This document shows positions 1 to 26,377 of a stretch of 64,000 nucleotides of DNA, piece by piece; positions within the stretch are counted from its first letter, which is position 1; every line of letters begins with the position of its first letter. The DNA is taken from positions 1,414,361-1,478,360 of the forward strand of contig NW_019217784.1 in the NCBI RefSeq assembly GCF_002571385.2, given 5' to 3'. This DNA comes from Stylophora pistillata (Eukaryota). Made by a program: the position numbers and the translations under genes. The notes under the pieces are model-generated. The model worked only from the letters and a program-made list of their open reading frames with translations. It was not told the DNA's origin and made no database searches.

Positions 1-458
1 TGGCCCAGCACACCATCAAATGGGTTACACAAGTGATTATCAAAATCAAATGGCTGCAAAGCAGGAGTCTGATTTGTTTATCGCAAGTATGGTTACATAC
101 AATTAGATGACACATTTAGTTTCTTTACCAATTAAAATTCAAGAAAGAAACTAAACATCAGTTAACCATTTTCCAAAAAAAAACCGTTAACTCAGTGAAA
201 TGAATGACAACAGCCAGTGCATGTGACATGTTCTGTCCACTGACACAGGCATGGCATGTCAACTGTCCCTTTAACTGTCATTTTACACTGTCATAATGCA
301 CACTGGCATGTGACATGTTCTGTCACTGACACAGGCATGGCCGCACACTGTCCTATTAGTGCTGAACTCCGCTGGTGACAACCAATCAAGTTCAAGAATT
401 TTCTTTTAGTTTTCATTAGTGACTGACTAGTATTCATCCTGCAGCACTTGTAAGGGGG

Positions 459-693
459 TAATTTGGATATATCAACAAAGTTGAAATGTTAAATTGGCCA
501 CTGTAACGATTACAAAAGCTGATGTTTCGAGCGTTAGCCCCTCGCTCTGATGAAGGGCTAACACTCGAAACGTCAGCTTTTGTAATCATTACGGTGGCCA
601 ATTTACCATTTCAACTTTGTTGATATATCCAAATTATTTCGTTACTCCCACCGACGCAGCCCCAAACAGTTTCTTTCCAAACTATCAGCCTTT
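459..693. mobile_element. Palindromic non-autonomous element (Penelope-like pseudo-LTR remnant) containing a hammerhead motif
   Basis: Near-perfect inverted repeat 459-636, followed by a tail (CTCCCACCGACGCAGC...AGTTTCTTT). Flanked by similar sequences acttgtaagggg (446-457) and acttataaggag (694-705), a possible degenerate TSD. Confidence 0.7.
544..577 (+). ncRNA. Minimal type I hammerhead ribozyme motif
   Basis: GCT-CTGATGA-A-GGG(CTAACA)CTC-GAAA-CGTC-AGC. CUGANGA core at 547-553, stem II, GAAA at 567-570, palindromic ACGT stem III, GUC cleavage triplet at 572-574, and a 3-bp stem I (GCT/AGC). Confidence 0.65.
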
Positions 694-776
694 ACTTATA
701 AGGAGGGCCTACTTGTTGGTTAAAATGACAATAACAATAATAATAACAGCATAATATTTTAATATAGTTGAAATAC

Positions 777-2306
777 CTTCTCTGTTCCAGGACAAACAGG
801 TAATCCTAAAGTTTAGACATAGTTCTGAAGAATTTTCCCAATGAAAAGGAAAGCCCTGAAAAACAAAAAAAAGTACAAATTCTAACCCTAAGCAAACTAC
901 AACCCTAATCAATTAACAAACTTAAGAAATACAGTAAGTATGTACACATACATGGTTGTTGCTAGCAGTTGCTGATTTGGCATCAAATATGATAACCTGT
1001 TTTCCATAAGATGCTGCAATCTGCCAAAAAAAAATTTAAATCGCAACATATACATAGCAAGATTATGTAACTTCATGTAAACAGATTTAATTGTGTAAAT
1101 ATAATTTACATTCCTATGGTGTGCATAGATCAAGCGTGTGTACTCATTTAAGTGTATCAGAGAGAATTTCTCTTCATACAACACTTATACCACTGTTAAA
1201 GCTAGAGTTGCTCTTTGCTAAGCTTCTTCCAGTTCTAAAGCTTCTTTTATGCTCTCCAAACTTTCTGCATACTTTGTATCTTCAGGGCTTGCTACTGTGT
1301 GATTGTTGGATACCAACCTCTAATAAACTATATCAACTAAATAGGGCATGTTCAACTGAGTGTCACAAGTAATTCTGGATTGTTTTGGTTTTGCTCTATT
1401 TCTAATCTGATTACTCCAGACAACTTGTGCCACTCTCTTAACCGATCAGTTTAAAAACTCAAATCATTCTCAACTTGGTCACACTTTTTTAAGTGCTTCA
1501 GGAAGTTTGCTTGTTGTTATTTAGAGTTCTCAATGGTTCCTGGTGATATTTTCCATGCTATGATTGGCTATTGTGACTAGTTTGGTTTTGGTTTTTACAA
1601 CACTCAATTCAAAATCCCTCCACTGTAACACTGCTTTGATTTGATTCCACAAAAATACCTTTCCATCAGAATCGCAGCAGTCAATACAGCTCACTTCTTT
1701 ATAACCATACAGAGAACCAGGAATAATCTGCACGCGAGTGAAGCCACTCAACAGGATAACAACATCACAGCCAGATGCATAGGCCTTGGATAACAAAGAA
1801 CAAACATGTGTTTGAGGCTATAATCTTAATTCAGTGTTCATGGAATATATTTCATGTCCATCAAAAGCACAAAAAATGTGCTAAGGGCTTCTGTGATCTG
1901 CCTGAACTTCGGCAGTGTCGTTTGAAAAAACATAAACGTTGAGAAATGTGATAGCATTTTAAATGCTTACTGTAACAAAATGCAAAGTTTCAAAATTATA
2001 TATTATCGATCTCTTCAGTCATTCGGTTACGGGCCTATAAATCAGTTTATACATCAATTTACGAGGCATTTTGTAAGACTGAAAATAAAATAAACATTGG
2101 CAATCATCCATAGTGGTTCCATTATTGATATGTTGACATCTGCCATCCTTTGAATTCATTATTTTCTGATCAAAACCGTAAAGCAGTGATTTAATTATTC
2201 AACAGCACTGTACCGTGAAGGGGTGATCATCTACACTGCCAACGGCGATTGCAGCCTTGTCATCGAATGTGTTTGTCGCACCTGTTAATACTTGATGAAG
2301 TTTCAT
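777..2306 (-). CDS. DMXL: DmX-like protein / rabconnectin-3 alpha, first four coding exons (gene continues beyond window start)
   Basis: Exons 2306-2214 (MKLHQVLTGATNTFDDKAAIAVGSVDDHPFT), 1784-1659 (AYASGCDVVILLSGFTRVQIIPGSLYGYKEVSCIDCCDSDGK), 1020-952 (IAASYGKQVIIFDAK...) and 855-777 (GFPFHWENSS...LSWNRE). All junctions are GT-AG and in phase. Closely resembles the N-terminus of vertebrate DMXL1/2 (MHLHQVLTGA...PFTAYGSGCDIVIL...VQIIPG...IAASYG). Confidence 0.92.
1345..1622. repeat. Dispersed repeat family (further copies at ~8928-9125 and ~34175-34390)
   Basis: Shared blocks TGAGTGTC...TTTGGTTTTGC...TGATTGG...TTTGGTTTTGG...ACACTCAATT at three loci. Confidence 0.6.
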
Positions 2307-2487
2307 CTTTAAAATATCAAATCATGATCGTGTTTTGGAAAGAGAACGTCAAATACTCTAGTTCCTGATGTCGAGGATGCCGCCATGTTTGACATGAATT
2401 TGCCTCAACTTGAATGGAGGAATCCGCTGGTTGATCATTGCAGAGTCAGGTTGCTGATCAGCGGTTAATCCCATCAGGGAAATTAAA
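2307..2487. promoter_or_regulatory. Compact bidirectional promoter region between DMXL and DTWD2
   Basis: Divergent ATGs only 181 bp apart (2306 on -, 2488 on +). A YY1-like AACATGGCGG motif lies on the minus strand at ~2380-2389. Confidence 0.7.
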
Positions 2488-5400
2488 ATGGCAGACCAAG
2501 AAGACGGGGAAGATGAAAGCGATTTTTTCCGCAGTTTTGCTGATGTTCCCTTGCATCCTCCGGAGAAAAGAGATATGTGTTCGAGGTGTAAGTAAGTGAA
2601 CTTCCATCACGCTTACTTATTGATATTTCCGTTGTCGCTGATGTGAAGATTGACGCCCAGCATAGTATAGTAGTTAATTTTTATTTTATAAGATCTCGTA
2701 CAAATTAATACATGATTTCCTTAAACTCTTAAAATTTCTCATCTATTTTTAGGAGACCACGTGCAGTGTGTTTGTGCGCTCATTTTCCTACTCATTTTCT
2801 TCACATCTCGACTACGATTCACGTATTGCAACATCCTCGTGAGGTTTGTCCTATTGCTCTGTATCTTTTAAATTATACTTTCAATTGGTTTTCAGAATTA
2901 TTTGGAGGGGGAGCGAATAAAAGCTACTTACTGACGATATTTATTTCATGGCTATATTGCATTGGCGAATAAAAGCTGGTTAATGACGATATTTATTTCA
3001 TTGCTATATTGCATTGGCGATTCTATCGACACAGTAATTTCTGAACTTAACAAAGCTTTAGAGGAGCTTCTGTACTGGTGCAAAACAAACTCCCTTGTGC
3101 CTCATCCAAAGAAATGTGAAGCAATGATCCTCCATCGCGGAAGATTCACTGGCCCATTGAAAGAGTTAACGTTGGCCCAGCACACCATCAAATGGGTTAC
3201 ACACACTCGTCTATTAGGCGTATTGATAGATGATCAACTAAATTGGTCTAAACATGTTAGTGTCGTTAAAAAAGGCTTTGTGGATAAGTTATACTTGTTA
3301 AAACGTGGCAAATTTTTTCCAAAGAATATGTTATTAGACTTGTATTTTAGAATTATTGTGCCGTCGATCGTATATGGAATATCAGTATGGGGAGGTCTCA
3401 GAAATAAGGAAGGTTTTAAGGAATTAGAAGCACTGCATTGTAGAGCTGCGAGAATTATCTTTGAGCTACCTTGGGAGATGTCTAATGCTGATGTTATGAA
3501 AAAGGCTAATTGGTCCCTTTTAGCCTTTATGTATAAAATTAGCTTAGCTAAGCTTATCTATAAAATCCATAATAACCTGACTCCAGATGCTATATCAGCT
3601 ATTATTAAGAACAATGATAACATCAAGCGATATCAACTTAGGAAGAAACTGAAAATTGATTTCCCTCGTTTTAACACCTACTACATGAGGAACTCTGTAG
3701 CTCGTAGAAGAGCAATAGTTTGGAACACGTTGGTTCCTCAACTTAATGACGATATAGACAATGTGAAGCACTATGCGATTATAGCAAGACGATCTAAGGC
3801 TTTGCTACACCTTGATTTCGACTGTATCTCCCCTCAAACATCAACCAGAAGGGAGGAAGACTTTAAGTATAATTGGTGTTAATAATTAGACGATATTATC
3901 GTACCACCTTGCTTTTTAGAATTTTAAGTTTTTATCATTTTAGACTTGTAAATAGTACGTAGAGATATGATTTTAGCTGGGTATATCCTATTTATTCTCT
4001 AATTCATTACTTATCTTACTTAATTATTTAGACACGACCCCACAAGCGAAGTGTCGCTTTAAATACTTATCGTGTATAAATAAAGATTATTGATTGATTG
4101 ATTGATTGCTGCTTATTCCACAATCGATAGCCATTCAAACAACAAAATTATTGAAACCCTCAGAAATATATAGGCTCCCTAACAATTGAGAAACTATGAA
4201 TTCTTGCAAAAACTACCTCCACATGTGATGCAGTTTAAAAATTGCCACCCTCATCATCATCATTGTCATCATCATCATCATTGTCATCATCATTACAGGG
4301 AGTGTTATTGTCACAATGTTACTATTACTCAATATTCCACAATGATGTTATTTGAATTTCATTTACCATCCACATCACTATTTTTGTCATCACCTTGATG
4401 AATATTGTAACTCATAATAACTGCAGTTCACACATACTGTACAAGTATGATTTTCATATATCTACAGTCAATGATTCACCACTTCACAGCTTTATTATGA
4501 ACCAACATAATGACCAGCTCCTATTTGACTTGTTAGCTCAGTTGGTAGAGTAATGCACCAGTATCACAGAGGTCATGGGGTTCAAATCCAAATTTCAGGC
4601 TTTATTCTCACTACTGCTTAAGTAGTGCTCACAACTGCAAAGATTGTTTTCATCTTCATTTCTCAAACTGCAGGTCATACATATGATTTTCATATATTCA
4701 TAGTCATTCATTATAACTCTATAGCACAGGCCTTGTGCATATATGATTGAAAGCAAAACATCAGAATGTTCTTCAACAGAATTACAGGGGAAGGAGATGT
4801 CAAGAATGATACTCCACATGTAAATGTTTTCTGGACGTGCTGCTTTGATCATTGAATGAAGGACATTCCTTTTTTTTCTAGGAATCTAGGCTTTTGACAA
4901 CTGTCCCCCTCCTGGAGGCCTGTTTACCTCCAAATAAAATCATCATCCGACGAGGGAGAAGATTCCACAAGCATGACTGGCCAGATCTTCATGAAATACT
5001 CAACAAGCCAACTACGCTGCTTTTATATCCAGGACCTACAGGTTGGAAGAATATTGTTTATTAACCCTTTTGCACCCAGGATAAACATCTAGAGGTCAAA
5101 TCAAACCTTATCCCTGTATTGATGTTTCATTTTCTTCTCATTACCTTTCTACTTGATCTTGTAGTGATACTGTTATAAGAAATCTTTTTTTGGTTAGTCA
5201 TGAGAGTGAAAGGGTGAATTGCTTTGTTGTATTTCTCTCCTGTGTTGGATGTAGGGGCCTTTGACTGCAGATCAAGAGATCAAAGTTTGCACCAAGTACA
5301 GAGTTTTTGTATTGTGTTGTTAGACAAGACACTGTACCCTTACAGTACTTCTTTCCAATCAGGAGAATGAATGGGCATTGAATAACTGTATGGGATACCT

Positions 5401-7302: not shown

Positions 7303-7647
7303 CAAGAACTAAGAAAAGAGCACGGTACAAGGGGAAACTCGTGACTGAGCATTTAGCTCAGGTTTTTCCTTTCACGAGTTTGTATCTGAATGGGCGATTG
7401 TTTCCGTTTCTTGATGAATTCACGGGGTTAAACACACTTCACACTCTCGTTCATACACGGATTCCTGGGCCAATTGAATTGACTCTTTTTAGGTTTCGGA
7501 TAGTGGCTATCGTAGAGCTTCAGGTCTGGATATACAAAAAGCGTCCAAGCTAAGGCGAGAAAGACACGAGGAAACTTCTGAGTACCAACTCATTTTCTTC
7601 GCGGAAACAGTTCTGTCAATCTGACCGTTCATGTGTTTTGAAGATAA

Positions 7648-7742
7648 TTTGGTTTTATCAACTGAGTTTCTAATGTAAATTAGCCTTCTTAAAGAGTTTC
7701 AAAAGCTGACGTTTTGGGGGTTTAGCCCTTCATCAGAGCGAA
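7648..7742 (-). mobile_element. Degenerate copy of the hammerhead-carrying element
   Basis: Reverse complement reads TTCGCTCTGATGAAGGGCTAAACCCCCAAAACGTCAGCTTTT. The CUGAUGA core is intact but the GAAA box has lost its G. Confidence 0.6.
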
Positions 7743-8281
7743 CAGGGAAATTGTGGGTTGTGTTTGGTTTATAAAAAGAAAGATGTGCTTTGTTCACTTT
7801 GTTCATGTGCTTTGTTCATGGTGTACTACCAGATGTCGGTCAAAGACTTTTTGTTACGCTTTCTCTTTGTCCACCTGGTTATCATTAAACCCACGACTTT
7901 CTCGCTGCGTTCATGAAGGCGCGTTCAAAATTTTGCTTTTTTTAACTCGTCTCTGTCCTCTTGCAGAGTAATGTTATAAACAAACTGAAAAATAGTAAAA
8001 CATGTTTACATTTTTATTACAGCTAGTTACATGGCATTAATATTTGTTTCGTATTCATTTAGAGCGTTTTATTTTTAGAAAAATTATAACTAGTTCTATA
8101 TTTGTCTCCTGTCAAACCTCTTAAAAGCCAACAAGATAAAGCGTTGTTTGCACAAGCTTGTCGATAATAAATACTCGAGCACAGTCTAAAGGCAGCCCGT
8201 GTGACCAGGACTGTTGTCAGTGTAAAAGCAAACATGTTTCCTCAGCCACGACCTCTTAGCGTTCATACTTAAAGCAATTTG

Positions 8282-26307: not shown

Positions 26308-26377
26308 TTGGATGGTAAATTGGCCACCGTAACGATTACAAAAGCTGACGTTTCGAGCGTTCGCCCTTCGTCGGAAG
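26308..26377 (-). mobile_element. ~70-bp hammerhead-element insertion with 15-bp target-site duplication
   Basis: Reverse complement reads CCGACGAAGGGCGAACGCTCGAAACGTCAGCTTTTGTAATCGTTACGGTGGCCAATTTACC. Flanked by identical GATAGAAAAGTAATT at 26293-26307 and 26278+100 (26378-26392). Confidence 0.75.

What the first reader, a model, noticed from the sequence alone, without database searches (positions are those of the whole stretch)
459..693. Minimal hammerhead ribozyme at the centre of a 178-bp palindromic element in a DMXL intron
Seen: CTGATGA (547-553), stem II GGG/CTC, GAAA, a loopless palindromic ACGT stem III, a GUC site, and a 3-bp stem I GCT/AGC. The opposite palindrome arm (the DMXL sense strand) carries stem II/III sequence but no CUGANGA core. 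Known: minimal type I hammerheads with a self-complementary stem III that fold as dimers occur in Penelope-like element pseudo-LTRs and in metazoan retrozymes, including cnidarians, and inverted pLTR arrangements are typical of truncated PLE insertions. Inference: this is a self-cleaving RNA-bearing mobile unit. The intact core lies antisense to the host gene, consistent with selection against cleavage of the host pre-mRNA.
Basis: partly seen in the sequence, partly recalled or inferred. Interest (0 to 1): 0.7.

Follow-up and report, generated by a model that had tools for sequence, protein, structure and literature searches.

The report
Penelope retrotransposon remnant with dormant hammerhead
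This is one of thousands of back-to-back remnants of a Penelope-type jumping gene, lodged in a gene's intron; its self-cutting RNA motif is likely inactive here, its textbook core likely arose by chance DNA decay, and the family's RNAs show the strand-specific letter changes typical of double-stranded RNA editing.

Summary
The sequence is as described: a 178-bp palindrome (459-636) and a minimal hammerhead (544-577) in an intron of a Rav1p_C/DMXL-type gene. It is a 235-bp insertion between 13-bp target duplications: a solo pseudo-LTR (541-693, +) plus an inverted, tail-less copy (459-543, -). It derives from a young RT + GIY-YIG Penelope-like element with over 3,400 copies; inverted pairs were the commonest form sampled (21 of 30 arms).

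The family core is CCGACGA (U4C; 2,575 exact copies), not CUGANGA. This copy's canonical core most likely came from CpG decay (97 copies with T4, 79 with the mirror change). The long hairpin is predicted to sequester the ribozyme, and no stem covariation was found within the family.

Pooled family RNA shows strand-specific A-to-G at 9-22% (DNA below 1%), typical of ADAR editing.

Verdict: known kind; PLE origin supported; activity and selection not supported.

The parts
446..458 (+). Left copy of the 13-bp target-site duplication
   Evidence: 11 of 13 letters match 694-706 and both abut the element ends
459..543 (-). Inverted, 5'-truncated, tail-less pLTR arm (family positions 9-93); lacks the catalytic core and the 5' strand of stem I
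   Evidence: BLAST 93% to the right arm; 5 of 85 differences from a majority-type copy
541..554 (.). Inversion junction: 4-bp microhomology (541-544 with 551-554; TTCG/CGAA in the family) around a 6-nt loop
   Evidence: Same 8-nt spacer in 9 of 40 palindromes examined, each with different flanks; many more among the first 100 rows
541..693 (+). Solo pseudo-LTR of a young Penelope-like element (hammerhead + 3' segment + tail)
   Evidence: 97-98% identical to copies that lie 97 nt after the stop of a GIY-YIG ORF; 4 of 151 differences from a majority-type copy, all at CpG
544..577 (+). Minimal type I hammerhead motif: stem I 544-546/575-577, core 547-553, unpaired A554, stem II 555-557/564-566 (fourth pair 558-563 broken by G563A), GAAA 567-570, self-complementary ACGT 570-573, putative cut after C574
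   Evidence: Sequence; architecture as in PMC4209133; family core is CCGACGA
637..693 (+). PLE 'tail', present on one arm only
   Evidence: Long arms end at family position 149-153 in 31 of 40 palindromes, short arms at 89-101 in 26 of 40; RNA and DNA loose ends cluster at 636-638 and 694
694..706 (+). Right copy of the target-site duplication
777..860 (-). Host exon just upstream of the intron that holds the insertion (DMXL/Rav1p_C-type gene; boundaries approximate)
   Evidence: Translation and GT donor; low stranded RNA coverage at 789-850; later exons hit Rav1p_C

Best explanation
This is a target-duplicated, 235-bp remnant of a young Penelope-like retrotransposon, made of one pseudo-LTR and an inverted shorter copy, whose hammerhead motif is likely silent at this locus because the arms are predicted to pair into a long hairpin. 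Shown: the parent element encodes RT and a GIY-YIG endonuclease; its hammerhead core is CCGACGA (U4C); arms end at two fixed 3' points and mostly begin at the hammerhead's 5' edge; the two arms of a pair share private variants. Inferred: the endonuclease nicks both target strands about 13 bp apart, each nick primes reverse transcription at one of two start sites on the same uncleaved RNA, both cDNAs stop near the hammerhead's 5' edge, and they are joined by the 4-bp TTCG/CGAA microhomology, which removes the core from one arm. Inferred: after insertion, methyl-CpG decay turned CCGACGA into CTGATGA and broke one stem II pair. Inferred: when the host intron is transcribed the insert folds as an 85-bp hairpin, the kind of RNA that ADAR edits; editing is shown for pooled family reads, not for this locus.
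For: PLE link: ORF ending 97 nt before the motif hits GIY-YIG and RVT_1 + GIY-YIG in one frame. Copy number: 3,756 and 3,437 exact-pattern matches, 0 for the reversed controls. Inverted pairs: 747/757 head-to-head matches; 21 of 30 arms picked by a downstream motif have an adjacent inverted partner. Fixed ends and both junction orientations. Arms share 19 non-reference variants against 1.8 expected, maximum 11 in 2,000 re-pairings; one polymorphic site agrees in 36 of 41 pairs against 20.9. Core: 2,575 C4 copies, 97 T4, 47 T7, 79 with the mirror change G5A; 42 of 43 ORF-linked rows are CCGACGA; all 4 differences of this arm from a majority-type copy are at CpG. Fold: whole insert -128.6 (+) and -140.9 (-) kcal/mol, hammerhead pairs below 0.001; a built double hammerhead scores -2.5 against -16.3 for the best dimer fold. 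RNA: no end pile-up (table 6 empty); eight strand-specific A-to-G sites at 9-22% against under 1% in DNA contigs. Literature: inverted 5'-truncated copy and one-sided tail (bioRxiv 2021.04.23.441226); two RT start sites, both strands extended, hammerhead mutants still insert (PMC11167929).
Against: No cleavage assay was run; U4C keeps enough activity in a viroid in vivo (PMC3088659), and a PLE hammerhead is protein-assisted, so RNA folding models may understate activity. The 34-nt motif differs at only one position between the young and the older subfamily while the next 59 nt differ by about 15%, which hints at constraint, but copies were picked by that motif. Standard RNA-seq may lose cleaved products, and table 6 needs a fifth of local depth. 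Shared arm variants could also come from fold-back synthesis or later arm-to-arm conversion. One sampled palindrome has an arm starting exactly at the cut site (L251). Editing reads are pooled over thousands of copies, the DNA runs are not the same individuals, only 40 of 290 difference rows were shown, and no edited site in the distal stem (606-636) reached the shown rows. The two arms of this very locus disagree at the polymorphic site, explainable by CpG decay.
Confidence: 0.85

Rival explanations
1. The unit carries an active dimer hammerhead, and its intact core survives only antisense to the host gene because sense insertions that cut the pre-mRNA are selected against.
For: All core letters are canonical in this copy and lie antisense to the host gene. 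Minimal PLE hammerheads cleave weakly as dimers in vitro (PMC4209133). Frog retrozymes are under-represented in introns (bioRxiv 2026.07.22.740005).
Against: Sense share of family reads at core position 4 is 52%, 47%, 52%; U4 share is 1,491 of 8,366 sense and 1,421 of 8,490 antisense reads. No end pile-up. Hairpin sequesters the stems on either strand. U4 here is best explained by CpG decay. A gene-annotation-based orientation count was not done.
Confidence: 0.07
2. The palindrome is itself a replicating unit (MITE-like or retrozyme-like) that spreads as a ready-made hairpin.
For: The same junction recurs at many loci and arms share variants.
Against: Junctions vary (26 different spacers among the 31 of 40 palindromes where one was read), either arm may keep the core, arm lengths range up to about 1 kb into the ORF, target duplications are PLE-sized, and no tandem array of this unit was found here.
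Confidence: 0.05
3. The second arm is made by the first cDNA folding back on the TTCG/CGAA microhomology and copying itself, not by a second priming on the RNA.
For: Explains shared arm variants and the window's own layout, where the long arm keeps the core.
Against: Cannot give the layout in which the tail-bearing arm lacks the core and the short arm keeps it, seen in about 8 of 40 rows against about 12 of the other kind (counted by eye; sampling not neutral).
Confidence: 0.2

Closest known systems
Minimal type I hammerheads in pLTRs of metazoan EN+ Penelope-like elements (PMC4209133, parts 1-2 of 4 read; PMC7229834, passages: over 6,000 type I motifs in Acropora millepora, most of them minimal)
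   Same: No loop 3, palindromic 15.2-16.2, unpaired base between 9 and 10.1, G10.1-C11.1, dispersed single copies, pairs on opposite strands, parent RT-GIY-YIG ORF.
   Different: Stem I is 3 bp and stem II 3-4 bp (shorter than the schistosome type); the young family majority has U4C, which the passages read do not mention.
Neptune/Nematis-type C-terminal EN+ PLEs (PMC8557442 and its preprint, passages)
   Same: RT, then a CX2-5CxxC linker (CARARCKTC), then GIY-YIG with CCHH-type residues; inverted 5'-truncated copy; tail on one end.
   Different: Tail is about 57 bp rather than 30-40; clade not fixed by a tree; no microsatellite target at this locus.
Poseidon of Anolis, PAc (PMC11167929, parts 1-2 of 4 read)
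   Same: Two RT start sites define the tail; both target strands are cut and extended; no RNA-seq ends at the hammerhead cut site; hammerhead not needed for insertion in vitro.
   Different: Different clade (no linker finger); canonical core; here the evidence is genomic only.
Edited palindromic or inverted repeats: Xenopus Harbinger, lizard Penelope, coral editome (PMC5625713 and PMC5850803, passages)
   Same: Self-folding repeat RNA with many A-to-G sites in non-coding transcripts.
   Different: The passages read do not name the edited repeat families in coral (no repeat annotation in PMC5625713; 'Penelope' absent from PMC5850803).
Non-LTR retrozymes (PMC7229834 passages; bioRxiv 10.64898/2026.07.22.740005 part 1 and passages)
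   Same: Type I hammerhead, PLE-related, present in corals.
   Different: Retrozymes are head-to-tail 220-450-bp repeats with canonical, efficient hammerheads and circular RNAs; this is a head-to-head pLTR remnant with a minimal motif.

Membership tests
EN+ Penelope-like element (pLTR remnant) | Parent ORF with RT and C-terminal GIY-YIG endonuclease next to this sequence | tested here: met
   L221 frame hits RVT_1 (E 6.9e-7) and GIY-YIG (E 2.7e-4, just under cut-off); L004 GIY-YIG above cut-off; motif lies 97 nt after the stop
EN+ Penelope-like element (pLTR remnant) | Partial tandem and inverted 5'-truncated arrangement | tested here: met
   Tandem copies in L217/L218; inverted partners in 21 of 30 arms
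EN+ Penelope-like element (pLTR remnant) | Tail on one end only | tested here: met
   Two fixed 3' ends, positions about 93 and 151
EN+ Penelope-like element (pLTR remnant) | Target-site duplication | tested here: met
   11 of 13 here; 26 of 40 rows gave a flanking repeat of 12 nt or more in a lenient search without a chance control
Neptune versus Nematis clade | RT phylogeny | not tested
   Linker finger and CCHH-type residues seen in the translation exclude Penelope/Poseidon and Hydra by PMC8557442; no reference proteins in hand for a tree
Minimal type I hammerhead | Core CUGANGA, GAAA, NUH | tested here: met
   Met in this copy; not met at position 4 in the family majority
Minimal type I hammerhead | Stems supported by covariation | tested here: not met
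   0-2 two-sided changes per pair among 270 copies. Unrelated families in the genome show the same layout with other pairs (L209; rows), which supports the class, not this copy
Minimal type I hammerhead | Active fold reachable as monomer or dimer | tested here: inconclusive
   Predicted unfavourable, and excluded inside the palindrome; models ignore protein help and tertiary contacts
Minimal type I hammerhead | Self-cleavage after C574 | not testable with these tools
   No end pile-up in four RNA runs; needs a bench assay
Non-LTR retrozyme | Head-to-tail repeats, each with a complete canonical hammerhead | tested here: not met
   Head-to-head arms, one core, no tandem array at the locus
ADAR-edited double-stranded repeat | Strand-specific A-to-G in RNA, absent from DNA | tested here: met
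   Met for pooled family reads at eight sites in three runs of two studies (two of the sites also); not resolved for this locus

The most novel reading that the evidence does not exclude
The most successful young Penelope-like family in this genome spread with a crippled hammerhead (U4C), so the motif would serve as a structural or stop signal rather than a cutter. Its dual-priming insertion would routinely plant perfect hairpins, making it an Alu-like main source of ADAR-edited double-stranded RNA in corals, and CpG decay would restore a canonical ribozyme core in a few percent of copies by accident.
Probability: 0.4. Interest if true: 0.55.

Novelty: new member of a known kind. Interest (0 to 1): 0.3.

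Why it matters
The locus itself is ordinary: thousands of such minimal hammerheads are on record in a coral genome. The family-level data touch an open question, what PLE hammerheads do in vivo. A near-identical, recently expanded family with a U4C core and no sign of cleaved RNA is a natural test that cutting is dispensable. It also warns that a canonical core in one genomic copy can be a CpG artefact, so descriptor-based hammerhead counts both miss the master and over-read decayed copies. The fixed arm ends and shared arm variants give a genomic record of PLE dual priming, and the editing signal names a likely ADAR substrate family in corals.

Tried and rejected
Rfam scan of 1-3000 found no hammerhead family, only weak hairpin matches. 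PDB and Pfam searches with the first host exons found nothing useful; identity came from later exons. My first idea that the left arm had an internal deletion was dropped: the G-rich end is the target duplication. Search for stem covariation within the family was negative. A 135-bp tandem array with a T4 core on another contig (L156) lacks the 5' strand of stem I and looks like a local duplication, so it was not taken as a retrozyme. Lünse et al. 2017 on dimer-cleaving PLE hammerhead variants is not held; I saw only its reference entry, and it may already report U4C. A whole-word search for U4C with hammerhead gave one paper; Penelope with twin priming, inverted and target site duplication gave two unrelated listings; searches on coral or cnidarian editing with Penelope gave no paper naming this family. 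Supplementary figures of PMC4209133 and PMC7229834, which list cnidarian motif families, were not opened and may hold this family. No homolog search, structure prediction or RT tree was run. No orientation count against gene annotation was possible. Sequence and word look-ups in earlier findings were empty.

Full report
Observation. The palindrome runs 459-636, with 85-bp arms that differ at 6 positions. The minus-strand arm begins at family position 9 and so lacks the core. The insert is bounded by a 13-bp direct repeat, 446-458 and 694-706, 11 of 13 alike. The host gene runs on the minus strand; later exons hit Pfam Rav1p_C and yeast Rav1. Calling it DMXL is from recall. Low RNA coverage lies on the predicted exons and on one mate direction only, which fixes the strand convention used below.

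What it is. A DNA search of the own genome with 544-696 gave 1,468 first-look candidates, the best 96-98% identical. Exact patterns count 3,756 hammerhead regions and 3,437 downstream segments, with 0 for the reversed controls. Longer copies continue upstream into an ORF that stops 97 nt before the motif and hits GIY-YIG. One locus holds RT and GIY-YIG in a single frame, with a CxxxxCxxC linker, which by PMC8557442 (passages) points to the Neptune or Nematis type; no tree was made. The right arm is therefore a solo pseudo-LTR and the left arm an inverted truncated copy, the arrangement described for PLEs (bioRxiv 2021.04.23.441226, passages).

How the insertion is built. A head-to-head pattern matches 747 and 757 times on the two strands. 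Of 30 arms picked by a downstream motif, 21 have an adjacent inverted partner; 16 begin within family positions -2 to 11, 12 begin further upstream and 2 downstream (the window's own arm is one of the 30, and some arms are partners). Among 40 distinct short palindromes, long arms end at 149-153 in 31 and short arms at 89-101 in 26; 9 share this locus's junction; either arm may keep the core. Arms of a pair share 19 non-reference variants against 1.8 in random re-pairing (maximum 11 of 2,000) and agree at one polymorphic site in 36 of 41 pairs against 20.9. Inference: both target strands are nicked and prime two RT start sites on one RNA, and the cDNAs are joined by microhomology at the hammerhead's 5' edge. 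This fits the in vitro behaviour of the Anolis Poseidon protein (PMC11167929, parts 1-2). Fold-back synthesis or later conversion remain possible.

The core. Only 438 of 3,756 matches have U at position 4, and about 21 of 30 such loci fetched have the tail of an older, more diverged subfamily (by eye). In the young subfamily, to which this copy belongs by its tail, 2,575 copies read CCGACGA, 97 CTGACGA and 47 CCGATGA; the mirror decay product of the same CpG, CCAACGA, occurs 79 times with a pattern one letter shorter. Of 43 motif rows next to the ORF end, 42 are CCGACGA (overlapping loci repeat some). The right arm differs from a majority-type copy at 4 of 151 places, all CpG, including core positions 4 and 7 and G563, which breaks the fourth stem II pair. 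So the canonical look is most likely accidental. U4C is reported to lower activity considerably in vitro while sufficing for a viroid in vivo (PMC3088659, passage and section 8).

Can it cut? Folding puts the whole insert in one hairpin on either strand, with hammerhead pairs below 0.001; a built double hammerhead scores -2.5 kcal/mol against -16.3 for the best dimer. Among 270 distinct copies no stem pair has more than 2 two-sided changes; copies were selected by similarity, and dead copies decay singly, so this shows no support rather than disproof. Other families in the genome keep the same layout with different pairs. Minimal PLE hammerheads are known to be weak and perhaps protein-assisted.

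RNA. Four raw RNA runs from two studies were laid, three per call; about 2-6% of each run was read. Reads come from the whole family. Hammerhead-sense reads are 52%, 47% and 52% at core position 4, and U4 is as common in sense (1,491 of 8,366) as in antisense reads (1,421 of 8,490). No place with many starts or ends was listed. This argues against strong selection on orientation and against efficient cleavage, within the limits of ordinary RNA-seq. Unexpected: eight sites equivalent to window 578-605 show A-to-G on the transcribed strand only, 8.9-21.7% against 0.1-4.9% on the other strand and 0.17-0.96% in DNA contigs. A>G and T>C reach 1% at 44-49 places each in RNA against 9 and 13 in DNA, on a reference with 67 A and 81 T. 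This is the ADAR signature. Limits: 40 of 290 rows were shown, the DNA is from other samples, and reads cannot be assigned to this locus; host expression in these runs was very low.

Comparison. The motif class, its occurrence in cnidarians, the inverted arm and the tail are all published (PMC4209133; PMC7229834; PMC8557442). Editing of palindromic repeats, of lizard Penelope and of coral non-coding RNA is published (PMC5625713, PMC5850803, passages; PMC9989829 passages added nothing specific). I did not find a U4C PLE family or a named PLE editing substrate in coral in the searches run, but Lünse et al. 2017 and the supplements were not seen. An earlier unreviewed note on this genome describes the same two-fixed-end, back-to-back signature in a tRNA-bearing repeat; it agrees but is not independent evidence.

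Verdict. Observation confirmed. PLE origin supported. Activity at this locus and selection on orientation not supported. New member of a known kind, interest 0.3; the family-level U4C and editing results are the parts worth following.

Noticed in passing
window 26312-26377 (minus strand): Second, truncated copy of the young family with the C4 core, between 14-15-bp direct repeats.
   Followed up: partly
window 7644-7760 (minus strand): Old, diverged copy (79%) with a U4 core, damaged stem II and GAAA, and upstream UTR-like sequence.
   Followed up: partly
L156 (G000:C335:93403-94381): Five 135-bp head-to-tail units plus one more copy, each with a T4 core and stems II/III but without the 5' strand of stem I; looks like a local tandem duplication rather than a retrozyme.
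   Followed up: partly
L209 and rows (C55, C72, C76, C78, C122, C156): Other low-copy minimal hammerhead families with different, well-paired stems and the same GAAACGTC signature.
   Followed up: no
L250/L251: One palindrome whose arm starts exactly at the base after the putative cut site; the junction also sits on a 4-bp palindrome, so it is ambiguous.
   Followed up: no
window 219-341: Two copies of a 37-bp motif about 87 bp apart, in the same intron.
   Followed up: no
window 2913-3020: 52-bp tandem repeat, 2.1 copies, upstream of the host start codon.
   Followed up: no
window 1-100 and 1533-1594: Probable fragments of other repeat families: 1-100 recurs in L151; 1533-1594 draws one-strand RNA reads from other loci.
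   Followed up: no
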